From positions 1 to 64,000 of IMG/VR virus record IMGVR_UViG_3300043777_000086: DNA of 64,000 bases. One strand, 5' to 3'. The translations under genes and the position numbers were made by a program. This stretch comes from a virus. Positions 2,774 through 62,526 of the stretch are shown in pieces. Each line of letters begins with the position of its first letter. Positions within the stretch are counted from its first letter, which is position 1. The notes beneath the pieces are model-generated. The model was not told where the DNA came from. It saw only the letters and a program-made list of their open reading frames with translations, and did not search any database.

Positions 2774-3255
2774 TGAAGTTAATCGCATTGACTAAGGGCT
2801 ATTACGCCCAGGTGGACGATGAAGATTTTAGTACTTTATCTCGCCATAAGTGGTATGCGCGAACGCAGGTATTTTCAAAAACCGGCAGGGTGAGCGTGTA
2901 TGCGGCACGCAGAGATCATGGCAGGTACGTGTCTATGCACCAAGTCATCCTTGGAATCAAGAACGTGGACCACGAAGATGGCGATGGATTGAATAATCAG
3001 CGCTACAACCTCAGGCCATGCACTAATTCCCAAAATATAGCGAACCAGGAGCCAAGGGGAGGCAAGTACTCGCGCTATAAGGGCGTAACGTTTAGCCTAA
3101 GGGACAAGAAATGGATCGCCCAGATAACAGCAAACAACACCCACAGGTTTATTGGATTGTTTAAGGAACAGGCCGATGCAGCGCAAGCCTACAACCTAGC
3201 AGCCTTTGAGGTTTTTGGGGACTTTGCTCGATTGAACCAGACGGTGCCGAGATGA
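2770..3255 (+). CDS. HNH-AP2 homing endonuclease
   Basis: VDHEDGDGLNNQRYNLR HNH motif followed by SRYKGV...KWIAQI...AAQAYN AP2 domain. Confidence 0.92.
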   Translation: MMKLIALTKGYYAQVDDEDFSTLSRHKWYARTQVFSKTGRVSVYAARRDHGRYVSMHQVILGIKNVDHEDGDGLNNQRYNLRPCTNSQNIANQEPRGGKYSRYKGVTFSLRDKKWIAQITANNTHRFIGLFKEQADAAQAYNLAAFEVFGDFARLNQTVPR

Positions 3256-3497
3256 GACGTCTTTTCCAGCTTGTTCGCATCCCCGAGGGCGCGCATCCAC
3301 CCGATGATAGGGCTGTGGAGCTTGGCGTGCCCTGCGCGTCGCTAGAACGCGCCCGGTCGCTCGCACAGGCTATCCATACAGATCATCCCGACTGGCCTCT
3401 GGAGATCGAGGTGCAGGAATACGGGCGCAAGATTGGAAATGCGCCCGTAACTTACTCGAATGGCTTGGCGGTTACCCGTCTCGGGGGTGTGTCGTGA
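3252..3497 (+). CDS. hypothetical protein
   Basis: ATGA coupling. Confidence 0.6.
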   Translation: MRRLFQLVRIPEGAHPPDDRAVELGVPCASLERARSLAQAIHTDHPDWPLEIEVQEYGRKIGNAPVTYSNGLAVTRLGGVS

Positions 3498-3733
3498 CGT
3501 TCTCTGAAGCTCTCATGCGCGCCGGCGCGCTGGTGGATCTAGCCCACAAGGCCGTCAAGAGCAGGCCCACTAAGCCGTGCGGGCACTGCGGCGAGATCCC
3601 GCGCGGTGACCGTGAGGAGTATCTGATGGATCAGCAACTTAAGGCCCTGTCGGACAAATGCCGGAGACTCGCCGGAGGGTCTTTCGGCGGGCGGGAGATT
3701 GGTAGAGTCAATCATGGCAGCGACAGCAACTAA
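3494..3733 (+). CDS. hypothetical protein with CxxC
   Basis: GTGA coupling. Confidence 0.55.
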   Translation: MTFSEALMRAGALVDLAHKAVKSRPTKPCGHCGEIPRGDREEYLMDQQLKALSDKCRRLAGGSFGGREIGRVNHGSDSN

Positions 3734-4202
3734 ACCCCGTGTCTCGGACGACCAATTCGTGGCGCTCGTGCTCGAGCAGCGCGGGCGCTGGAAGGCGTTC
3801 GTTCAGGCGCGCGGGTTTGATGAAGCCACCGCCGACGATATCGTGTCGGAGGCCGTCCTGCGCGGGTACCGCTACCTGGGGGCGTTCCGCGGCGAGGCGA
3901 GCCTGCTCTCCTGGATGCTCACGATCATCCTGCGTGAGACGTACACCCACTTCCGGCGGGCGCGGTATCGTATACAAACGGAAAGCCTTGAGGATGAACT
4001 GGTCGACGGGGATACGCTCTCGCGGCCGGAAACGACTACGCGCGCCGCGCTTTTTTCTCAGGTTATGGTGCATGTGAAACGCTTGACGCGCGGAGAGCGT
4101 TTAGCGATCGCGTATTACCTGGATGGCTGGGATAAGCCAAGCCGGTCCGTCCGAGTTCGGAAGTTTCGAGCAGTGCAGAAGTTGAGGGAGAGGCTGTTGT
4201 AG
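3714..4202 (+). CDS. ECF-type sigma-70 family factor (region 4 shortened or degenerate)
   Basis: ADDIVSEAVLRGY..FRGEASLLSWML region 2; VRVRKFRAVQKLR resembles region 4. Confidence 0.8.
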   Translation: MAATATKPRVSDDQFVALVLEQRGRWKAFVQARGFDEATADDIVSEAVLRGYRYLGAFRGEASLLSWMLTIILRETYTHFRRARYRIQTESLEDELVDGDTLSRPETTTRAALFSQVMVHVKRLTRGERLAIAYYLDGWDKPSRSVRVRKFRAVQKLRERLL

Positions 4203-4232
4203 TTGTAGTTTGTTGGAGTTAGTAAAAATCAC

Positions 4233-4262
4233 TTGACAGAATGGTTCGAATCGGCGAAGATT
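4233..4262 (+). promoter_or_regulatory. putative sigma70 promoter
   Basis: Perfect TTGACA at 4233 in an AT-rich intergenic gap; weak -10. Confidence 0.45.
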
Positions 4263-4304
4263 TGTTGTCCACAAGAATTCACAACTCAGGAGAAAACACT
4301 AGAT

Positions 4305-5408
4305 ATGAATAAGGGAATGGAGTTATCGACTTGCGCTCGGGAAATCGCTAGGCAGCAAGGGTTGAAGCGAGACTTCCGGGCACCGGCGGCGCGCATGCGA
4401 ATGAGCGTGCTCTCGCCGGAACAGGAGCGTCAGTCACCGGATGGGTTCAAGATGCGCTTCGCGCTGAACCTGGATGGGCAAGCGCAGCCGTTCGCGGTCC
4501 GCAAGCTCGCCCACCAGCAGATCGCGGAGCGCGTCAAGGTGCCCTGGAATTACTATGAGCGCTGCATGTCGGAAGCGCCGGAACTGGTCACCGAGAACGT
4601 CAACCACTGGCTCACGCACTCTGACGACGTGCGGCTAGTGCGAACGCTCGACAGTCAAGCCAGGGCCTATCTTGGGGATAAGTACCGGCCGCTCGACAAC
4701 TACGACCTATTCACAGCCGTGGCGCCCACGCTCATGGGCGAGTCGGCGCGCGGCATGCGAATCGAGTCGATCCAGATCACCGAGACGAAGTTTTACATCA
4801 AGGCGTTCACCGACCGGATCACCGGCGAGGTCAAGAAGGGCGATGTCGTGCAGGCGGGCGTGGTCATCACGAATTCCGAGGTCGGACATGGGACGCTGGC
4901 GGTCGAGCCCAGCGTGCTCAGATTACTGTGTTTGAACGGTTTGACCGCAAACGACGCCTCTCTCCGCCGGCGTCACGTCGGCCGGGGTTCCGAGATCCAG
5001 GGAGTTGAAGAGTACTTTTCGGATGCCACGCAGCGCATTACAGACGAGGCTTTCTGGCGTCAAGTCAACGACGTTGTACGTGGGGCGTTTGATGAAATCA
5101 AGTTCAAATCCCTCGTCGAGAAAATGCAGGCGACTCTCGATAACCGGATTCCCGAGGGTGGAGCTACCCTCCAGGAAGTTTCAGAGGTCTTCCAGAAGCG
5201 CTACAGTTTGAGCGCCACCGAGGGCGATATGATTCTCAAAAATCTCATCTCCGGCGGCGATCTCAGCCACTACGGCATTGTCAACGCGATCACCGCGACC
5301 GCGAAGAATGGGGATCTTTCGTACCAGCGGGCGGATGAGTTGGAGCACATCGGTGGACAGGTTCTTGAGTTGTCCCGATCCGAGTGGAAGGAATTGATCG
5401 CCGCATAG
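4305..5408 (+). CDS. DUF932-like phage protein
   Basis: AHQQIA..RTLD..ARAYL..YRPLDN and NSEVGHG..RLLCLNG motifs; AGGAG RBS. Confidence 0.8.
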   Translation: MNKGMELSTCAREIARQQGLKRDFRAPAARMRMSVLSPEQERQSPDGFKMRFALNLDGQAQPFAVRKLAHQQIAERVKVPWNYYERCMSEAPELVTENVNHWLTHSDDVRLVRTLDSQARAYLGDKYRPLDNYDLFTAVAPTLMGESARGMRIESIQITETKFYIKAFTDRITGEVKKGDVVQAGVVITNSEVGHGTLAVEPSVLRLLCLNGLTANDASLRRRHVGRGSEIQGVEEYFSDATQRITDEAFWRQVNDVVRGAFDEIKFKSLVEKMQATLDNRIPEGGATLQEVSEVFQKRYSLSATEGDMILKNLISGGDLSHYGIVNAITATAKNGDLSYQRADELEHIGGQVLELSRSEWKELIAA

Positions 5409-5426
5409 CACCCGCGTCTGCGGGTA

Positions 5427-5455
5427 TTGACCCACACAAGGCTTAGATCCATGAT
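5427..5455 (+). promoter_or_regulatory. putative sigma70 promoter of the GIY-YIG gene
   Basis: TTGACC-17 bp-CATGAT. Confidence 0.55.
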
Positions 5456-5528
5456 GATTTCACCTGCCGACTCAATGTTATCGCGAGGAGTGAGGGTTGC
5501 CTTCAATGGCGACGGCAGGGATTTTATT

Positions 5529-55978: not shown

Positions 55979-56320
55979 CTATTGTCCCTTTCTCAAGAAA
56001 TACAAAATTAACGCGCCTATCAGCATCTGAATAATAACCCCAGCCCCCAGTCCGATGTAGATGAACTTCCAGACGTTTTCCATTTGCTCGACAACGCGTT
56101 GATGTCGGCTATTGTATTCGTCCTTCGAGACCATTTCTTTCTGCATCTCGCGGTTCTCCGAACGCAGATTGTTCATGTCCCGAAGGCGTTCGTCCATGAG
56201 CTTTTGCAGCAGCGCCGTTTGTCCGTCGCGTAATTCAAAGACCTCCCTTAGGTGTTCAAAACGAAGCCTGATGATCTCGGTTAATTGCTCAACGTCATGA
56301 CTCCTTGTTCCCGAAGGCAT
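55979..56320 (-). CDS. coiled-coil plus C-terminal TM protein (haemolysin/holin-like)
   Basis: WKFIYIGLGAGVIIQMLIGALIL TM. Confidence 0.65.
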   Translation of the reverse strand: MPSGTRSHDVEQLTEIIRLRFEHLREVFELRDGQTALLQKLMDERLRDMNNLRSENREMQKEMVSKDEYNSRHQRVVEQMENVWKFIYIGLGAGVIIQMLIGALILYFLRKGQ

Positions 56321-56326
56321 TGCTCT

Positions 56327-56770
56327 TCAGTGCTCAACGGAAACCACCAGATGCTCATCGATCGGCTTGCCAGCGGCATCGTCCTTTTCGGCTGGCACGA
56401 GCGTTACTTCTTTCGGTTTCTTTACGACATTTTGAAACATCCACTCCTGGCCAGCCCGCTGCGCAGCGAAACGAATGAAGCCGTCGTAAAGCGCATGCAG
56501 GGATGGGGTCGATCCCGTGAAGTGCCATCCGGTTGACGCGTCTCCGCTGGTTATGCTAATCGTGCCTTGTACGAACAGCGCCGTCCCGAGTGCGGCTCCG
56601 GTGGACACCCAACGCGTCACGCGATCGGAGTTCGCACTAAGCCACGGGAACCAGCGCGCACGCTTCAACCACTGAATCACGTAAACTGTGATCACTACCA
56701 AACCGGCTTGGTGCGCCATCGCGTCTAGCGCGCGCATCAGATCCGGGTTGGAGATATCTTCGGATTGCAT
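56327..56770 (-). CDS. holin-like membrane protein
   Basis: VIQWLKR..WL motif, 2 TMs. Confidence 0.6.
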   Translation of the reverse strand: MQSEDISNPDLMRALDAMAHQAGLVVITVYVIQWLKRARWFPWLSANSDRVTRWVSTGAALGTALFVQGTISITSGDASTGWHFTGSTPSLHALYDGFIRFAAQRAGQEWMFQNVVKKPKEVTLVPAEKDDAAGKPIDEHLVVSVEH

Positions 56771-57051
56771 TACTTTACTGGCGGGATGGGGTCTACCTGT
56801 TCAACTTTTATGACCGGCTGCTGGGTGTTCGCTGCAATCACCTCCGGGCTCGATGGTTGAGGGATCTTTCCGCCCGACACCTGCGAATCCTTGGCATTCA
56901 CCCCGAAGCTCGCTAACCCACCCGCCATCGCGAACATAGCGATCGCCATAATCCAATTCGGAAACGTGATGAAGTGGAGCTGCTGAGCGAATAGAACAAA
57001 AGACGCGGCAGCCGATATGGATGCCGCTACTGTGGTTCTCCAGCTCTTCAT
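56770..57051 (-). CDS. holin-like membrane protein
   Basis: MKSWRTT..2 TMs..AKD motif; AAGGAGG RBS. Confidence 0.7.
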   Translation of the reverse strand: MKSWRTTVAASISAAASFVLFAQQLHFITFPNWIMAIAMFAMAGGLASFGVNAKDSQVSGGKIPQPSSPEVIAANTQQPVIKVEQVDPIPPVK

Positions 57052-57125
57052 AGAACCCTCCTTGATCCTTACCAGGATCTGCATTTGGCTAACGATAACA
57101 TAGCCCTACCGGGCTCGAATTAATG

Positions 57126-57155
57126 TGGACAAAAATATCCGAGGCGTGATATCCT
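57126..57155 (+). promoter_or_regulatory. putative promoter of the GT/sulfotransferase cassette
   Basis: TGGACA-18-TATCCT with extended TG; the same AATGTGGACAA occurs at 27077. Confidence 0.45.
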
Positions 57156-57177: not shown

Positions 57178-58767
57178 ATGCCGATAAATCCCACCATAAT
57201 CTTCTGCACAACCTGCAAGGGACGCACGCAGCATTTAGCGCAGACGCTCCCTATGAATCTTCGCGACAACGCCAACTACCCGAACTGTAAATTCGTTGTG
57301 CTGGATTACGGAGACCCTGGTGAGTTGAAGGAATACCTGAGGGCGGTTCATCCTCCTGACATTGCCAGCGGCCGCCTTAGCGTTTATCGTTTTGAGACAG
57401 AGGAGCCCTTTCATGTCTCGCACGCCAAGAACATCGCGGCCCGTTGCGGTATTTTAGAGGGCGCTGACATCCTCGTCACGCTCGATGCCGACAACTTCAC
57501 CGGGCCAGGCTTCGCGCAATACATTGCGGATCACTTTCAAGTTTTAGACTACGCACCACCGGGGCAGTTTTTGGTCCCCAACCACCTCTACATCCAGAGC
57601 CTTCCGCACGGCCCCGGACGACCCTGCCGGGGTTTCGCCGGCCGCTTGGCGATCCGCGCACAGGACTTCATCAAGATGGGCGGGTACGACGAGACTTACA
57701 ACACCTGGCGCGGAGAGGACATCGACCTGATGTTTCGAATGATGCGTTCCGGCTACGCACTGCGGCATATCGACAACCGATTTCTGAATACGATCCCGCA
57801 CAACGCCGCGGTCCGATTCAAGGAGTACCCCGAGGCTCGGCAGTACGAGAATCCGGATGAGGTCAAGGTGATCCGCGCCCGTACGGAAACCGTCGTCAAC
57901 TATGGCAAGTTTGGTATGGGAACGGTTTACCGCAACTTCAGCTCCAGACCCATTGAACTTACTGCCGTTCCCACTAGGATCTTCGGAATCGGAATGCATA
58001 AAACCGGTACCACTAGCCTGAACGCGGCGTTTCAGATCCTCGGTTTAGATAGCCTCCATTGGGGAGCCGGTGAAGCGCCTCGGATCTGGCAGGAGATGAA
58101 CTCTGGAGAATTTTCTAAGACGCTCGAGCAATGGTACGCGCTTTCCGACCTTCCAATCCCTCTGCTTTACAAGAAGCTCGATCGCGCTTACCCTGGATCG
58201 AAGTTCATCCTCACGGTGCGCAACGAGGAGAAGTGGCTCCGGAGTGTCGAACGGCTATGGAGCCCGAGGTTCAACCCGACCAGGCACCTCTGGAACATCT
58301 GGCCGTTTAGCAACACCATCCATCGCGTGCTGTACGGACAGGATACGTTCGACGCAGATATATTTCTTGAAAGATACCGGCGGCACAATCGAGAGGTGAT
58401 AGAGTATTTCCGCCAGCGCCCGCAGGATCTACTCGTGCTAGATATGGACGCCGAGGCGAAGTGGGCGCCTCTTTGCATGTTCCTCGGATTGCGCTATCCG
58501 GCAGTCGAATTCCCTACGCAAAATCAGACTCAGGCGTTTGAGTCGCTAAAGGTATACTCTGCCCCCGAACCGTGCGATGACGTCGACAGCGATGAAGAGC
58601 TTCTCGCAAGAAGCCTTCGTGAGTACTGGAGGACCGCACCCCCAAGTGGACAGCCGACACCAACTCAGCCGATGACCACGCATCATAAAAGAAGAATGCG
58701 CCGGATCCGGCGTAGGAGAGAGGTGGAGGCTAATACCCCGATCAAGGGACCGGAGGAAATAGCGTGA
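57178..58767 (+). CDS. GT-A glycosyltransferase (GT2/GT7C-like) fused to a PAPS-dependent sulfotransferase
   Basis: AKN, LDAD (DxD), GGYDE..WRGEDIDL; then GMHKTGTTSL (5'-PSB) and LTVR..W..S (3'-PB). Confidence 0.9.
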   Translation: MPINPTIIFCTTCKGRTQHLAQTLPMNLRDNANYPNCKFVVLDYGDPGELKEYLRAVHPPDIASGRLSVYRFETEEPFHVSHAKNIAARCGILEGADILVTLDADNFTGPGFAQYIADHFQVLDYAPPGQFLVPNHLYIQSLPHGPGRPCRGFAGRLAIRAQDFIKMGGYDETYNTWRGEDIDLMFRMMRSGYALRHIDNRFLNTIPHNAAVRFKEYPEARQYENPDEVKVIRARTETVVNYGKFGMGTVYRNFSSRPIELTAVPTRIFGIGMHKTGTTSLNAAFQILGLDSLHWGAGEAPRIWQEMNSGEFSKTLEQWYALSDLPIPLLYKKLDRAYPGSKFILTVRNEEKWLRSVERLWSPRFNPTRHLWNIWPFSNTIHRVLYGQDTFDADIFLERYRRHNREVIEYFRQRPQDLLVLDMDAEAKWAPLCMFLGLRYPAVEFPTQNQTQAFESLKVYSAPEPCDDVDSDEELLARSLREYWRTAPPSGQPTPTQPMTTHHKRRMRRIRRRREVEANTPIKGPEEIA

Positions 58768-59279
58768 CGGTTTTGATGACAGGTCTACCGTGCTCTGGAA
58801 AGACGACGCTCTCCTTAGCGCTCTGTAATCTTCTACGCAACTCCGGACGCCGCGCCGAGATCCTCGACGGTGACGTGGTGCGCTTCGAGCTATGGAAGGA
58901 GCTTGGGTTCAGCCAGTCTGATCGCGAGGAAAACGTTCGCCGCCTTGGTTATCTTGCGCGTATGCTCTCCCGGAACGGCGCTATTGCCATCATAGCGGCG
59001 GTGTCCCCCTACCGCGCCTCCCGCGACCATATCCGCAAAATATCCGACAACGGATTTATGGAGGTATACGTTAAGGCGCCTCTTTCTGTTTGCGAGACCC
59101 GCGACGTAAAGGGAATGTATGCCCAGGCGCGCGCCGGTAAGCGACCACACTTCACCGGCATCGACGACCCCTATGAGGCGCCGGTCAATCCCGAGGTAGA
59201 ATGCCTAACAGATGAAGAGAGCGTCGCGGAGATCGTCGCCAAGATCGTGATCGAGCTTAAAAAGCAAGGAGCCCTCTAA
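58764..59279 (+). CDS. cysC: adenylyl-sulfate (APS) kinase
   Basis: TGLPCSGKTT, LDGD, LGFSQSDREENVRR, SPY, RDVKGMY, FTGIDDPYEAP. Confidence 0.96.
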   Translation: MTVLMTGLPCSGKTTLSLALCNLLRNSGRRAEILDGDVVRFELWKELGFSQSDREENVRRLGYLARMLSRNGAIAIIAAVSPYRASRDHIRKISDNGFMEVYVKAPLSVCETRDVKGMYAQARAGKRPHFTGIDDPYEAPVNPEVECLTDEESVAEIVAKIVIELKKQGAL

Positions 59280-60106
59280 TGAACTACCGCCTCGGAAAGC
59301 GCCCGCCGGTTGTCGACGCGCGCACACTTAAATTCAGGAAGTACACTACTACTTTACCGCCAGTTCCGCTATTAGTTGATTTCATGTCCAAGGTCCCGAG
59401 TTTCCCGATGTATCTCAATGATGTTGAGGGCGACTGTGTATGCGCCGCCGCGGGCCACATGATTCAGAACTGGACGCAGTATTCCGGCAAGTACTTCCAG
59501 CCAACCGACGCTGACATTCAGACGTTCTACGAGTTCAGCGGATTCGATCCCGGCAATCCGTCGACCGATCAGGGATGGGAACTCCTGCCTGCATTGAAGG
59601 TGTGGCGCAACAAAGGCATCGGCGGTCATAAGATCGTCGCCTTTGCGCAACTCACCACCGGAGACTTCGGGGAACTCCTGGATGCGATCCGGATCTTTGG
59701 AAATGCCTACCTGGGGTTCAGCCTTCCGGATTACGTAGTGCCCAACTCCGGACCGGACTGGACAACCATCCGGTGGCTGTACGAAGAAGGCAACCCTCCC
59801 GATCCAAATAACGGCCACTGTGTGCCGGCTATGAAATTTTCCCTTAAAACCGCATACGGTCATCGCGTGTGGTTCGTTTCCTGGGCGGCAAGGATGGTGA
59901 TGAACCCCCCGTTCTACCAAGCCTATAGCGATGAAGCCTGGGTGGCGATCACGCAGGACTGGATAGATGCGGATGCTAAGTCTCCGAGCGGGTTCAATAT
60001 GGCAGCGCTTACCGCCGACCTGGCATTAATTACCGGGAAACCGCAGGCGGCGACCGCGATCCAACCCAAGAGTGCTGATAGAAAGAAATGGTGGAGCCGG
60101 CTATGA
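59279..60106 (+). CDS. papain-like cysteine peptidase
   Basis: ND..GDCVCAA..H catalytic Cys, GHCV His, VSW. Confidence 0.75.
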   Translation: MNYRLGKRPPVVDARTLKFRKYTTTLPPVPLLVDFMSKVPSFPMYLNDVEGDCVCAAAGHMIQNWTQYSGKYFQPTDADIQTFYEFSGFDPGNPSTDQGWELLPALKVWRNKGIGGHKIVAFAQLTTGDFGELLDAIRIFGNAYLGFSLPDYVVPNSGPDWTTIRWLYEEGNPPDPNNGHCVPAMKFSLKTAYGHRVWFVSWAARMVMNPPFYQAYSDEAWVAITQDWIDADAKSPSGFNMAALTADLALITGKPQAATAIQPKSADRKKWWSRL

Positions 60107-60471
60107 CACCCTCTCAATTCAGAACCGATCGCAACAATAACCCCACGGCCATGATCGTGCAGTTGGCCCAGGAAGGCGGGCTCGTTGAAGGTACCGACTA
60201 CACCCAGGGGGACGCTTTCGAATCCGGAGGTAGGACCTACTACACCGCCAAGCTCCTTGGGGATCCGGTAGCCCTCACAATCAAAGTGATCGACGAAGTG
60301 GGATTCTACTCTGAACCGCCGCATGCCCGCTGGAACTACATCGCTATACCGCACGCCCTGTGGATGAGCCTGAATACAATCCAGAAGTCTTACGTGATCG
60401 GCTGGATGTATTCACAGGAGGGTGGAGTGGCGATGAGGAATCTATTTCCGGTTGCGCCTTATAGCGCGTAA
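60103..60471 (+). CDS. small protein with RNNNP motif (lysozyme-like family, tentative)
   Basis: RTDRNNNPTAM ... QEGG. Confidence 0.5.
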   Translation: MTPSQFRTDRNNNPTAMIVQLAQEGGLVEGTDYTQGDAFESGGRTYYTAKLLGDPVALTIKVIDEVGFYSEPPHARWNYIAIPHALWMSLNTIQKSYVIGWMYSQEGGVAMRNLFPVAPYSA

Positions 60472-60492: not shown

Positions 60493-61167
60493 TCACGGAG
60501 CCACCGCGTTAATCGCCTGAGCGTACAGCGCAGAAGAATGCCAGGCGATCGGGTCGATGTCCTTCAGGTCCAAGAATCCGTCCGGTGCCTTAGTCACGTG
60601 CGTGAGCGGGATGTTCTTGTACGCGAATGCAGGCGGCAAAGGTAGGGGCAGCATAGGGACTGGGTCGCCATAGAAGCCTGCCGCGTTCCTGTAATTGCGC
60701 CATTCCACTTTGGACAGGAAGTCGAGGAATGCTTGGAATCCCGGAGCTGGGCCTGCCATTCCGATTATGCGAAGCATCGAAGGATCGGGTTGGTACTGAT
60801 CTAGGAAGATCGCGCCGGCTTCCGCCGCGCGTTGGCTTCCTAGGCTGTGTCCCGTTAAGGTGGTCTTCAATCCCAAGTTCAAGAGGGGGACGATCCGCGC
60901 CATCGTCTCGGGCATCCCACAGAATGATCCAGAGTGGACAGGTCCGAATCTGGCGTGCTGGTAAGGCTGTGGGTAGGCCATAAGATCCTGCAACCAATTC
61001 TGAAGCTCAGAGGGAAGCGTGCCGCGAAATACTACTACGTTCTCATCTGGGGTCAACAATACCGCACAGCATATGGAGAAGCCCTCCTCTGGGTAGTATT
61101 TGGTGAACCCCGCCGCGCCAGAGTAGATTGCGTGGCTAAGTTGCGCGGCCTGTGCGTCTGATATCAT
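60493..61167 (-). CDS. class-3 lipase (alpha/beta hydrolase)
   Basis: VVFRGT, VHSG, TGHSLG nucleophile elbow, DPVP, H near the C-terminus. Confidence 0.9.
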   Translation of the reverse strand: MISDAQAAQLSHAIYSGAAGFTKYYPEEGFSICCAVLLTPDENVVVFRGTLPSELQNWLQDLMAYPQPYQHARFGPVHSGSFCGMPETMARIVPLLNLGLKTTLTGHSLGSQRAAEAGAIFLDQYQPDPSMLRIIGMAGPAPGFQAFLDFLSKVEWRNYRNAAGFYGDPVPMLPLPLPPAFAYKNIPLTHVTKAPDGFLDLKDIDPIAWHSSALYAQAINAVAP

Positions 61168-61289
61168 GATCGCCACTGAATCGCCAGCCAACCAGCCGCC
61201 CCAAGAAGTGCCAGCAATGCAAATACAATCCAGCATGCCAGCCAGAAGCGCTGTACGTCGTTAGGGGTGTGCGGGGATTGGTGGGTCAT
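61164..61289 (-). CDS. 41-aa single-TM peptide
   Basis: MTHQSPHTPNDVQRFWLACWIVFALLALLGAAGWLAIQWRS; coupled on both sides. Confidence 0.55.
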   Translation of the reverse strand: MTHQSPHTPNDVQRFWLACWIVFALLALLGAAGWLAIQWRS

Positions 61290-61788: not shown

Positions 61789-62526
61789 TCAGTCATTGCA
61801 GACCACCTGCTGATCGCACAGCAGAGCGCTAGTCGATTCTAATACAGATCGTACGGCCTTCATGTCCAGCGCTCGGTCGTCTTCGGTACGCACCCGTCGC
61901 TCCATGTCGATCCAGTATGGTCGCGAGAACCCCTCCTCGAATAGCGCCTCAATTTTCTGCACCTGATTTACTACATTCTGTGGACCTAACCCACCAGCAT
62001 AGCCGCACCAGAAGGGCACGTTCCGTGAAGAAGGCCACTTATCAGGAAGAATCCCCGCGCCTCCCGACGTGTCGAATAGTGCCGCCACATCAAGGCCGTG
62101 TGCGTGGACGCCGAGCGATAGGTGGTTGTTGACGCCGTCCCACTGAAAAATAAACTGCTTGCCTGAAAGCGAGCGCAGGCAATCGATCAATCCCATCGTC
62201 GAAACGTGCTCCTCGGCGTGCGTGTTGATTTGAATGCGTTGCGAAATATGCACGCACTCGGGCAAATCCGGCCAGTTCAATTTCCCGACGAACATGTCCC
62301 GAACCCAACGCCCGCACACATGCGTCGAAACTTTGAGTTTTTTCGCAAACGCAACGGTAGAAAATCGATCGATCCAGTCACGGCCCGGAAAGCGCGGAGA
62401 ACCCTCCAGTCGCTGCGACACCAGAATGCCCCACTCCACAAATGGAAACTGATGAGCCAAATCAACCAGCTCGATTATGCTCGTGCTGTCATCGGCTCCA
62501 GTAATCGTAACCGCCTTCAGGTTCAT
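61789..62526 (-). CDS. TrpF (PRAI)-like TIM-barrel protein
   Basis: TITGADD, LFDTSGGAG, GYAGGLGPQNV, WIDME..VR. Confidence 0.8.
   Translation of the reverse strand: MNLKAVTITGADDSTSIIELVDLAHQFPFVEWGILVSQRLEGSPRFPGRDWIDRFSTVAFAKKLKVSTHVCGRWVRDMFVGKLNWPDLPECVHISQRIQINTHAEEHVSTMGLIDCLRSLSGKQFIFQWDGVNNHLSLGVHAHGLDVAALFDTSGGAGILPDKWPSSRNVPFWCGYAGGLGPQNVVNQVQKIEALFEEGFSRPYWIDMERRVRTEDDRALDMKAVRSVLESTSALLCDQQVVCND

What the first reader, a model, noticed from the sequence alone, without database searches (positions are those of the whole stretch)
57178..59279. Phage glycan-sulfation module: glycosyltransferase-sulfotransferase fusion coupled to APS kinase
Seen: a GT-A domain and a PAPS-binding sulfotransferase in one polypeptide, translationally coupled (GTGA) to cysC, on the opposite strand to the late operon with its own promoter-like sequence. 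No ATP sulfurylase is present in the window. The fusion ends in an Arg-rich tail (HHKRRMRRIRRRRE). Established: CysC converts APS to PAPS, the sulfotransferase donor. Inference: cysC here supplies a dedicated sulfo-glycosylation rather than sulfur assimilation. The target could be virion proteins, host surface glycans (receptor masking) or DNA, which the basic tail hints at.
Basis: partly seen in the sequence, partly recalled or inferred. Interest (0 to 1): 0.75.

Follow-up and report, generated by a model that had tools for sequence, protein, structure and literature searches.

The report
Phage sugar-sulfating enzyme with PAPS kinase
A complete soil phage genome carries a two-in-one enzyme (sugar transferase plus sulfate transferase), its own kinase for the sulfate donor and a lysin-type protease in one coupled operon; the enzyme belongs to a large, almost purely phage-borne family not described in the papers I could search, and its target is still unknown.

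Summary
57178-58767 encodes a 529-aa GT-A plus Sulfotransfer_4 fusion. The complete 106-kb phage has no ATP sulfurylase and no PAPS reductase, and natural ST-APS-kinase fusions exist. So cysC here feeds the sulfotransferase, not sulfur assimilation.

New findings:
- The fusion is the conserved core (43-75% identity) of a family of more than 1,296 proteins. The family is 97-100% viral and sits in unrelated phage backbones.
- cysC is an optional add-on, present in 4 of 25 near-complete genomes.
- The peptidase is the commonest partner (10 of 26, plus one natural GT-ST-peptidase fusion). Elsewhere it is a module of phage lysins.
- The Arg-rich tail is not conserved. In relatives the same position holds a transmembrane anchor (15 of 179) or the linker to a fused kinase.
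- Known routes to DNA sugar acceptors are absent, so DNA is an unlikely target.

My best reading is a late-expressed sulfo-glycosylation of a membrane-proximal envelope acceptor, but the target is unproven. This scan met the same family before in another phage genome.

The parts
57126..57155 (+). Weak sigma-70-like promoter match (TGGACA, 18 nt, TATCCT, with TG before the second hexamer) in the 93-nt divergent intergenic region
   Evidence: 9 of 12 matches. Such sites are only about twice as frequent as in shuffled sequence, so this is a consensus match and not evidence of function.
57178..57963 (+). GT-A glycosyltransferase domain (residues 1 to about 262) of the 529-aa fusion. Invariant motifs: DxD (D103-A-D105-N106), WRGEDID (E180-D181) and N-terminal TTCKGR.
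   Evidence: Pfam Glyco_transf_7C 35 bits over a cut-off of 23. Invariant columns in 33- and 43-sequence alignments. AF2 model pLDDT 87. Z 18.3 to the PmHS2 GlcNAc-T domain and Z 17.2 to K4CP chondroitin polymerase. Foldseek hits to beta4GalT1 and ppGalNAc-T. The profile hits beta4GalT1 at E 4e-3.
57970..58539 (+). PAPS-type sulfotransferase domain (Sulfotransfer_4, residues about 265-454). It has the 5'-phosphosulfate loop GxHKTGTTS (G270-S280), the 3'-phosphate motif R348...S356, and invariant H294 and D324.
   Evidence: PF17784 E 1.7e-36. The profile hits Schistosoma SULT-OR at E 8e-20, with both PAPS motifs aligned. Z 19.7 to Cpz8 with PAP bound and Z 18.5 to SULT-OR. Invariant columns.
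58540..58767 (+). Non-conserved C-terminal extension, including the polybasic stretch HHKRRMRRIRRRR (nt 58681-58719) and the TGA stop
   Evidence: Outside the conserved core. Mostly low pLDDT, apart from a helix at residues 501-518. Of 179 family members, 119 have no extension, 15 have a TM anchor at a terminus, 3 have a polybasic tail, 3 have a fused APS kinase and 1 has a fused c1. P0031 has RKMRRRRRHHHHKK as the linker to its fused kinase.
58764..59279 (+). APS kinase (cysC), 171 aa, GTG start overlapping the fusion's TGA (GTGA)
   Evidence: PF01583 E 3e-56 and TIGR00455 206 bits over a cut-off of 138.7. The P-loop GLPCSGKTT, LDGD, VSPY, KGMY and FTGIDDPYE motifs are visible in the translation. 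GGAGGA lies 6 nt upstream.
59279..60106 (+). c1: papain-fold Cys-His peptidase (275 aa, phrog_19005), translationally coupled to cysC (TAATG)
   Evidence: Junction. Invariant N47, G51, C53, H180 and W202 in 15 sequences. AF2 pLDDT 79.6. Foldseek: xylellain 3ois at E 3e-8, TM 0.58, then cathepsins. Found next to the fusion in 17 of 67 loci and in 10 of 26 near-complete genomes. Natural GT-ST-c1 fusion P0075. Elsewhere fused to Phage_lysozyme + Lipase_3, to Rv2525c-like glycoside-hydrolase domains and to PLDc_2. Atlas structural neighbours include a viral PG_binding_1 + Peptidase_C1 cluster.
60088..60471 (+). Last gene of the plus-strand island (127 aa), overlapping c1 by 19 nt; no family, not conserved in related loci
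   Evidence: no Pfam, PHROG or locus match.
60493..61236 (-). Convergent neighbour: class-3 lipase-like protein (247 aa), possibly part of the same lysis or envelope-attack region
   Evidence: Pfam Lipase_3 E 3.7e-9. The same domain is fused to lysozyme and c1 in P0144.
55979..57084 (-). Divergent neighbours: three small proteins (113, 147 and 104 aa). Two of them carry one predicted TM helix each and look holin- or spanin-like.
   Evidence: Hydropathy scan and ORFs. No family hits. The lysis role is an inference.

Best explanation
This is a translationally coupled operon of an apparently virulent 106-kb soil phage that makes a sulfated sugar conjugate during infection.

Step 1 (inferred from intact motifs and folds): the GT-A domain, an inverting enzyme of the beta4GalT / GAG-synthase type, transfers one sugar from a nucleotide sugar to an acceptor.

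Step 2 (inferred): the fused Sulfotransfer_4 domain sulfates that sugar with PAPS.

Step 3 (well supported by gene content and fusions): the phage APS kinase turns host-made APS into PAPS, so the donor does not run short. It is an optional booster that most relatives lack, not a sulfur-assimilation gene.

The acceptor is not shown. My best guess is a lipid-anchored or membrane-proximal envelope molecule at the cytoplasmic face of the inner membrane: a polyprenol-linked glycan or peptidoglycan precursor, the LPS core, or a membrane lipid. Four observations point that way. Independent relatives are tethered to the membrane. The enzyme is far more conserved than any phage protein around it, across phages found in MAGs of different host phyla. 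The cellular relatives of the ST domain sit in multi-GT wall-polysaccharide synthases. The commonest partner, sometimes fused, is a lysin-type peptidase.
For: Enzymes intact:
- Pfam and NCBIfam scores are above cut-off.
- Catalytic motifs are invariant in 43 sequences.
- The two-domain model is confident (pLDDT 87, pTM 0.82).
- Fold matches: Z 18-20.

cysC serves the sulfotransferase:
- The complete genome has no ATP sulfurylase and no PAPS reductase.
- cysC lies within 10 kb of the fusion in 6 of 67 related loci, always downstream on the same strand and one to three genes away.
- Kinase-fused forms exist: P0012, P0031, P0032.
- phiRSL1 likewise places its APS kinase in an operon with a sulfotransferase-like gene and NDP-sugar enzymes.

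The fusion is the core of the system:
- More than 1,296 relatives at 43-75% identity.
- No neighbouring gene except c1 is shared by more than 10 of 67 loci.
- Only 4 of 185,579 species genomes hold it, all of them MAGs.
- Atlas clusters are 97-100% viral.

Membrane or envelope lean:
- 15 of 179 members carry terminal TM anchors, with the catalytic part on the cytoplasmic side.
- The ST domain is 37-39% identical to those in 1,448-1,524-aa GT2+GT4+ST proteins that a source names as cell-wall biosynthesis.
- The GT is closest to capsule and GAG polymerases.
- c1 is coupled or fused to the fusion and is a lysin module elsewhere.

Lytic use: a tyrosine integrase is found in only 4 of 26 near-complete genomes, and not in this one.
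Against: - No acceptor has been identified by any test.
- Two thirds of family members have no membrane anchor.
- The neighbour census found lysis genes other than c1 only once or twice (one glucosaminidase, one peptidase) among 150 ORFs. A general lysis-cassette location is therefore not shown, and in many phages the gene lies beside terminase, HNH or replication genes.
- c1 is a huge family (7,105 representative clusters) that mostly occurs without the fusion. The adjacency could be positional, since both could be accessory genes at a module boundary.
- The solved relatives of the ST domain sulfate small molecules (SULT-OR, Cpz8, SgdX2).
- In this phage the operon sits among structural genes, as virion-glycosylation genes do in mycobacteriophages.
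Confidence: 0.42

Rival explanations
1. Virion decoration. The fusion O-glycosylates and then sulfates the phage's own structural proteins (capsid, fibres) in the cytoplasm before assembly, giving the particles a sulfated sugar coat.
For: In this phage the operon lies inside the structural and late region, between a 1,556-aa virion protein gene and fibre genes. The GT also resembles ppGalNAc-transferases, which start mucin-type O-glycans (Z 16.2). Virion glycosylation by phage GTs next to structural genes is reported for mycobacteriophages (cited in papers listed; the primary paper was not read here). Most carriers look virulent.
Against: The enzyme is 43-75% identical across phages whose neighbouring proteins share no detectable similarity. 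Its position varies between replication, packaging and structural modules. Membrane-anchored variants fit poorly with a cytoplasmic virion-protein substrate. No conserved acceptor gene travels with it.
Confidence: 0.25
2. Action on a soluble host protein or a small molecule. Examples are take-over by glycosylating a host factor, inactivating a defence signal or an antiphage metabolite, or activating sulfation that creates a leaving group.
For: High conservation across phages of different hosts fits a universal soluble target. The closest solved sulfotransferases act on small molecules, and SgdX2 is an activating enzyme. Two thirds of members have no anchor. GT-A enzymes with DxD motifs include protein-glycosylating enzymes (established knowledge).
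Against: No partner gene suggests a metabolite pathway. TM-anchored forms and the multi-GT polysaccharide relatives point elsewhere. There is no match to PADLOC-type or anti-defence families, but I did not run that library.
Confidence: 0.2
3. DNA hypermodification. The sugar and sulfate are put on phage DNA, with the basic tail binding DNA.
For: The polybasic tail. In several relatives the gene lies next to HNH, terminase, DNA methyltransferase, helicase or polymerase genes. Other phage sulfation cassettes lie in DNA-glycosylation operons; this comes from unchecked notes of this scan and from the phiRSL1 operon.
Against: The tail is not conserved and is replaced by TM anchors or a kinase linker in relatives. 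ThyA-type hydroxymethylase is in 3 of 26 near-complete genomes, TET/JBP in 0 of 28 (that search had no positive control), and C5-methylase in 3 of 26; this genome has none of them. A membrane-tethered DNA-modifying enzyme would be odd.
Confidence: 0.07
4. cysC is an ordinary sulfur-assimilation auxiliary metabolic gene that only happens to lie next to an unrelated transferase.
For: Viromics papers routinely list phage cysC as a sulfur AMG (papers found). One jumbo phage has cysC with no sulfotransferase within 5 kb.
Against: The genome has no ATP sulfurylase and no PAPS reductase. The genes overlap (GTGA). Three independent ST-kinase fusions exist. When cysC occurs in related phages it lies just downstream of the fusion on the same strand.
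Confidence: 0.04

Closest known systems
Bacterial GAG and capsule polymerases with GT-A domains (E. coli K4 chondroitin polymerase K4CP, 2z86; Pasteurella heparosan synthase PmHS2, 8viw) and beta-1,4-galactosyltransferase 1
   Same: GT-A fold (Z 17-18), DxD motif, and a W-x-G-E-D-x-D motif at the place of the beta4GalT catalytic base.
   Different: Only 11-18% identity. A single GT domain, not a two-domain polymerase. Fused to a sulfotransferase. Phage-borne. Donor and acceptor unknown.
Sulfotransfer_4 (PF17784) enzymes with solved structures: Schistosoma SULT-OR (5tiv, 4mua), Streptomyces Cpz8 (9kf2), SgdX2 (8y9p)
   Same: Same Pfam family (E 1.7e-36), the same PAPS-binding loops, and Z 18.5-19.7.
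   Different: Those are single-domain enzymes acting on small molecules. Here the domain is welded to a glycosyltransferase, and its nearest long cellular relatives sit in multi-GT polysaccharide synthases.
Rhizobial sulfation systems (NodH sulfotransferase with NodPQ ATP sulfurylase/APS kinase; LpsS LPS sulfation), recalled from established knowledge and not tested here
   Same: A dedicated PAPS-supply gene is kept beside a glycan sulfotransferase instead of relying on housekeeping sulfur assimilation.
   Different: The phage brings only the kinase step, with no sulfurylase. The sulfotransferase family differs. There is no homology evidence.
Ralstonia phage phiRSL1 ORF232-ORF238
   Same: An isolated phage has its APS-kinase gene in one operon with a sulfotransferase-like protein and NDP-sugar enzymes.
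   Different: Separate genes, not a GT-ST fusion. The kinase matches over only 55% of the query at 34% identity. A different genomic setting.
Mycobacteriophage virion glycosylation loci (Che8 and cluster O type)
   Same: Phage-encoded glycosyltransferases expressed with late genes. A few relatives of this family also have TylF or Methyltransf_24 O-methyltransferases next door.
   Different: No sulfation is known there. The GT families differ. Here no virion acceptor is identified, and some members are membrane-anchored.
Papain-family (C1) cysteine peptidases, e.g. xylellain (3ois), and peptidase modules of phage endolysins
   Same: c1 has the papain fold and an invariant Asn...Cys...His...Trp pattern. 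It occurs fused to lysozyme, lipase and glycoside-hydrolase domains.
   Different: No Pfam Peptidase_C1 match for the window's protein at E <= 0.1. 10-15% identity to solved enzymes. Substrate unknown.

Membership tests
GT-A fold glycosyltransferase (GT2/GT7-like) | GT-A Rossmann-like fold | tested here: met
   AF2 model with pLDDT 87. Z 18.3 to PmHS2, Z 17.2 to K4CP, and many GT2 enzymes at Z 13-17.
GT-A fold glycosyltransferase (GT2/GT7-like) | DxD metal and nucleotide-sugar binding motif | tested here: met
   D103-A104-D105-N106 is invariant in 33 and in 43 sequences.
GT-A fold glycosyltransferase (GT2/GT7-like) | Pfam family score above the curated cut-off | tested here: met
   Glyco_transf_7C scores 35 bits against a cut-off of 23. 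The GT2 models all fall below their cut-offs, so no CAZy family is assigned.
GT-A fold glycosyltransferase (GT2/GT7-like) | Sugar transfer activity, donor and acceptor | not testable with these tools
   Needs an enzyme assay.
Sulfotransfer_4 (PF17784) PAPS-dependent sulfotransferase | Family score above cut-off, and the fold | tested here: met
   126.5 bits against a cut-off of 22.8. Z 19.7 to Cpz8 with PAP bound.
Sulfotransfer_4 (PF17784) PAPS-dependent sulfotransferase | 5'-phosphosulfate-binding loop and 3'-phosphate-binding motif | tested here: met
   GxHKTGTTS (G270, G272, T278 and S280 invariant) and R348...S356 align with the same motifs of SULT-OR.
Sulfotransfer_4 (PF17784) PAPS-dependent sulfotransferase | PAPS-dependent sulfate transfer | not testable with these tools
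   Needs a 35S-PAPS assay.
Adenylyl-sulfate kinase (CysC, TIGR00455) | Equivalog-domain model score above cut-off, with P-loop and APS-binding motifs | tested here: met
   206 bits against a cut-off of 138.7. GLPCSGKTT, LDGD, VSPY, KGMY and FTGIDDPYE are visible in the translation.
Assimilatory sulfate-reduction gene set (sulfur AMG reading) | Companion steps present: ATP sulfurylase (Sat or CysDN) and PAPS reductase (CysH) | tested here: not met
   PF01747 and PF01507 have no match at E <= 1 in the complete genome, while both searches ring in the control genomes.
Phage DNA sugar hypermodification systems | An enzyme that creates the hydroxymethyl acceptor: a ThyA-type dNMP hydroxymethylase | tested here: not met
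   PF00303 is absent from this genome and from 23 of 26 near-complete carrier genomes.
Phage DNA sugar hypermodification systems | Alternative route: C5-methyltransferase plus TET/JBP dioxygenase | tested here: inconclusive
   PF00145 is in 3 of 26 genomes and not in this one. PF12851 is in 0 of 28, but that search rang in no control genome either, so its sensitivity is unproven.
Temperate-phage surface conversion (Gtr/Oac-type seroconversion) | Temperate lifestyle (integrase) of the carriers | tested here: not met
   A tyrosine integrase is in 4 of 26 near-complete genomes and not in this one. Serine recombinases and GtrA/GtrC-type membrane partners were not searched.
Papain-like cysteine peptidase (clan CA, C1-like), for the coupled 275-aa protein | Papain fold with a catalytic Cys and His | tested here: met
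   Foldseek hits xylellain at E 3e-8 and then cathepsins. C53 and H180 are invariant, together with N47 and W202.
Papain-like cysteine peptidase (clan CA, C1-like), for the coupled 275-aa protein | Pfam Peptidase_C1 sequence membership | tested here: not met
   No Pfam family at E <= 0.1. Only look-alike Atlas clusters carry PF00112, in part. It therefore works like a C1 peptidase but is not a sequence member.

The most novel reading that the evidence does not exclude
A whole phage-only enzyme family puts a sulfated sugar cap on a universal lipid-anchored envelope precursor: lipid II, an undecaprenyl-linked sugar, the LPS core, or diacylglycerol. It does so at the inner face of the membrane, as part of the late or lysis programme. 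Such a cap could terminate wall or glycan synthesis, or re-charge the cell surface. That would be a new way for phages to manipulate the bacterial envelope, and the first sulfation chemistry assigned to a phage.
Probability: 0.2. Interest if true: 0.85.

Novelty: new variant of a known kind. Interest (0 to 1): 0.68.

Why it matters
Sulfated glycans are central to eukaryotic cell-surface biology but rare and poorly studied in bacteria. No paper in the library I searched describes a phage sulfotransferase. Here a tightly conserved, almost exclusively viral two-domain enzyme turns up in more than a thousand metagenomic proteins and in phages of 39 to 265 kb, so many soil phages probably make a sulfated sugar conjugate during infection.

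The finding also changes how phage cysC should be read. In this setting cysC is a donor-supply gene for a transferase, not a sulfur-cycle auxiliary gene as viromics surveys usually score it.

The family is easy to test: one soluble 450-residue protein with commercially available donor candidates. Finding its acceptor would reveal either a new virion modification or a new way of attacking or re-coating the bacterial envelope.

Tried and rejected
Gene contexts therefore came from the search for related loci and my own ORF calling. That calling is crude: it is greedy by length and missed at least one c1 gene, in L014 (compare).
- A single-sequence locus search found only 1 locus; the alignment-based search found 63.
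- INPHARED phages hold no close relative of the fusion. The one hit covers the GT part only, at 27% identity.
- Complex prediction of the fusion core with c1 returned 'no answer' (score 0.00). I use it neither for nor against binding.
- Neighbour census. I expected a general lysis-cassette location. Among 150 immediate neighbours, only one glucosaminidase and one peptidase appeared, and no family occurred more than 3 times. I dropped that generalisation.
- The 127-aa gene after c1 has no relative in any locus.
- Prediction that fusion-carrying cellular genomes without an adjacent cysC have their own APS kinase: 4 of 4 MAGs gave hits, but only 2 were strong and 1 was at threshold. This is weak and uninformative.
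- Reverse check of phage cysC against sulfotransferase: phiRSL1 yes; a 462-kb uncultured phage no; Pseudomonas phage Y4 is an unannotated, unverified record and I did not pursue it.
- Literature searches for PF17784 gave only family listings.
- I considered a programmed frameshift joining the fusion to cysC, because fused forms exist. I found no need for it: cysC has its own Shine-Dalgarno sequence and GTG start.
Full report
OBSERVATION

- The first carries a Glyco_transf_7C match (residues 153-208, 35 bits, cut-off 23) and a full Sulfotransfer_4 domain (residues 267-454, E 1.7e-36).
- The second is an APS kinase (PF01583 E 3e-56; TIGR00455 206 bits against a cut-off of 138.7).
- The junction reads GGAGGA, then 6 nt, then GTGA.

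The window is the first 64 kb of a complete 106,152-bp virus record with direct terminal repeats. Neither ATP sulfurylase nor PAPS reductase/CysD is found anywhere in that genome, although both searches ring in the control genomes.

The promoter-like site is only a weak consensus match.

The unit is longer than reported. The cysC stop overlaps the start of a 275-aa gene (TAATG, with GGAG upstream). A 127-aa gene then overlaps that one by 19 nt.

THE FUSION PROTEIN

An alignment of 33, then 43, relatives shows a conserved core spanning residues 1 to about 448.
- GT invariants: the DxD motif (D103-A-D105-N106), a WRGEDID motif (E180-D181) and an N-terminal TTCKGR motif.
- The TTCKGR motif supports the ATG at 57178 over the 504-aa model held in the protein collection.
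- ST invariants: a GxHKTGTTS loop, R348...S356, H294 and D324.
- The profile aligns both PAPS-binding motifs with Schistosoma SULT-OR (E 8e-20) and weakly hits beta4GalT1 (E 4e-3).

The AlphaFold model is confident (pLDDT 87, pTM 0.82).
- The ST half matches Cpz8 with PAP bound (Z 19.7) and SULT-OR (Z 18.5).
- The GT half matches the PmHS2 GlcNAc-transferase domain (Z 18.3), K4CP (Z 17.2), ppGalNAc-T and beta4GalT.

Both domains therefore look catalytically competent. That the WRGEDID motif corresponds to the beta4GalT catalytic-base motif, and that the GT is therefore inverting, rests on my recall of that family.

THE FAMILY

- The protein search returned more than 1,296 relatives. The best 120 are 57-75% identical over about 85% of the query.
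- An alignment-seeded scan found 63 IMG/VR loci at 43-67% identity, in records of 4 to 265 kb. The near-complete genomes among them span 39 to 230 kb.
- Only 4 loci turned up among 185,579 species genomes. All 4 are MAGs: Solibacteraceae, two Alphaproteobacteria and a Deltaproteobacterium.
- The ESM Atlas clusters for this architecture are 97-100% viral.
- Split forms are rare, for example P0277 plus P0290, both from a 94.6-kb contig. Most short hits are contig-end fragments.

GENOMIC CONTEXT IN RELATIVES

I called ORFs in all loci and clustered them.
- Nothing within +/-10 kb is shared by more than 10 loci except the 275-aa protein (c1). c1 is found in 17 of 67 loci, always on the same strand and within 1.5 kb.
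- cysC lies within 10 kb in 6 of 67 loci, always downstream of the fusion on the same strand and one to three genes away.
- At whole-record level, APS kinase is in 4 of 25 near-complete genomes and c1 in 10 of 26.
- Other neighbours are terminases, HNH endonucleases, helicases, a PolA-UDG polymerase, DNA methyltransferases and a malectin protein.
- A census of 150 immediate neighbours shows no dominant family. A few sugar-chemistry genes appear: Methyltransf_24/TylF, GDP-mannose dehydratase/epimerase, GT2 and GT_PLOD.

The fusion is therefore a mobile single-gene cassette, far more conserved than its surroundings. cysC and c1 are optional partners. Only 4 of 26 near-complete carriers have a tyrosine integrase, and this phage has none. 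The fusion is the only GT2-like sequence in this genome.

ROLE OF cysC

Four independent lines say it feeds the sulfotransferase:
- The rest of the assimilation pathway is absent.
- The genes are translationally coupled.
- The position just downstream of the fusion is conserved where cysC occurs.
- The kinase is fused into the same polypeptide in three ways: C-terminal in P0012 and P0031, and N-terminal behind a TM helix in P0032.

phiRSL1, an isolated phage, shows the same logic: APS kinase, NDP-sugar enzymes and a sulfotransferase-like gene in one operon. The link is not universal, because a 462-kb phage has cysC beside NADAR and PNK-phosphatase genes. APS itself must come from the host. That cysC is kept where host PAPS is scarce is an inference I could not test properly.

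THE Arg-RICH TAIL

The tail lies outside the conserved core. Of 179 family members:
- 119 have no extension;
- 15 have a hydrophobic TM-like anchor (13 C-terminal, one of them a DUF2061 domain; 2 N-terminal and followed by Arg/Lys clusters, which places the catalytic part in the cytoplasm);
- 3 have polybasic tails;
- 3 have a fused kinase;
- 1 has a fused c1.

P0031 uses RKMRRRRRHHHHKK as the linker to its kinase domain. The tail is thus better read as a remnant linker or a membrane-affinity element than as a DNA-binding device.

c1

- c1 has invariant N47, G51, C53, H180 and W202.
- Its model is confident (pLDDT 79.6), with xylellain and cathepsins as the best structural matches.
- P0075 is a natural GT-ST-c1 fusion. 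Its residues 473-714 align with c1 residues 4-251 at E 3e-16.
- The family is very large: 7,105 representative clusters, 3,085 of them at E <= 1e-30.
- c1 occurs fused to Phage_lysozyme + Lipase_3, to Rv2525c-like glycoside-hydrolase domains, to PLDc_2 and to DUF4214.
- Atlas structural neighbours include a viral PG_binding_1 + Peptidase_C1 cluster.

c1 is therefore most likely a lysin-type peptidase. In the window it is flanked by a Lipase_3 gene and, across the divergent promoter region, by small proteins, two of which carry a single TM helix. The local region looks like a lysis and envelope-attack region. The census above does not let me generalise that to the whole family.

TARGET

DNA. 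ThyA-type hydroxymethylases are absent from 23 of 26 near-complete carriers and from this genome. C5-methylases are in 3 of 26. TET/JBP is in 0 of 28, but that search had no positive control. Together with the tail analysis and the membrane-anchored variants, I put DNA at about 7%.

Virion proteins. This remains plausible, given the position in this phage, the ppGalNAc-T likeness and the mycobacteriophage precedent. It is weakened by the lack of any co-travelling acceptor and by the anchored variants.

Envelope. This reading is favoured by several observations:
- the membrane anchors;
- the ST domain's long cellular relatives (37-39% identity), which sit in 1,448-1,524-aa GT2+GT4+ST proteins that a source names as cell-wall biosynthesis;
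- the GT's likeness to capsule and GAG synthases;
- the c1 link;
- the need for an acceptor common to hosts of several phyla.

None of this is proof, and I give the full best explanation 0.42.

COMPARISON AND NOVELTY

Each enzyme belongs to a known kind. The combination is new in three respects: it is a phage-only GT-ST fusion family, it has an optional private PAPS kinase, and it has a lysin-type peptidase as a partner. My literature searches found no paper that describes it. Viromics papers list phage cysC as a sulfur AMG.

This scan had already noted the same family in another phage genome (e1-3264597) and other phage sulfation cassettes. I treated those notes as leads and tested the ones that mattered.

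Noticed in passing
window 58699-58712: A perfect 14-bp palindrome, CGCCGGATCCGGCG, lies inside the codons of the Arg-rich tail, about 50 nt before the cysC start. It differs from the genome-wide RTCCGA-NN-TCGGAY palindrome noted by others. It could be a hairpin that affects cysC translation, or chance.
   Followed up: no
window 57178-57252: The protein collection holds this gene as a 504-aa product (P0001), 25 residues shorter than the 529-aa ORF. If it starts at Met26, that model removes the family's conserved N-terminal strand and the TTCKGR motif, so the ATG at 57178 is the better start.
   Followed up: yes
window 60493-61236 (-): A class-3 lipase-like gene lies convergent to the operon. 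The same domain is fused to phage lysozyme and a c1 domain in P0144. This suggests a lipase arm of lysis or envelope attack in this phage.
   Followed up: partly
window 61789-62526 (-): A 245-aa protein whose only match is a faint one to PRA isomerase (TIM barrel, E 0.099). Function unknown.
   Followed up: no
L007:12960-13802 and L008:12143-13012: The c1 homologues of two related phages start with long His/Arg runs (for example MRTHRRRRHHHH). These recall the His/Arg-rich stretch at the end of the window's fusion and the linker in P0031. Such low-complexity basic segments recur at gene junctions of this cassette.
   Followed up: no
P0034 (relative of the fusion, 503 aa): It carries a Cys/His-rich insertion of about 45 residues inside the sulfotransferase domain, possibly a zinc-binding module.
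   Followed up: no
P0002 (relative, 608 aa): GT-ST fused to a C-terminal DUF2061 membrane domain (E 1.4e-13). An unchecked note of this scan (e1-6001256) also reports DUF2061 in another phage sulfation operon. DUF2061 may be a recurrent sulfation-linked membrane partner.
   Followed up: partly
P0167 (c1 relative, 604 aa): A c1-family protein is interrupted by an intein-like splicing domain (below the Pfam cut-off). This is unusual for a lysin-type gene.
   Followed up: no
L072 (LR756500.1, 462-kb uncultured phage) 3005-5489: Here a bona fide APS kinase lies beside NADAR and PNK-3'-phosphatase-like genes and not beside a sulfotransferase. Phage APS kinases may therefore have a second, nucleotide-related use.
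   Followed up: partly
L067 (Alphaproteobacteria MAG, 3.1-Mb contig, around 2.57-2.59 Mb): The copy in this chromosome-sized contig matches only residues 6-417 (a 410-aa ORF). It is probably a prophage copy with a shortened sulfotransferase end.
   Followed up: no
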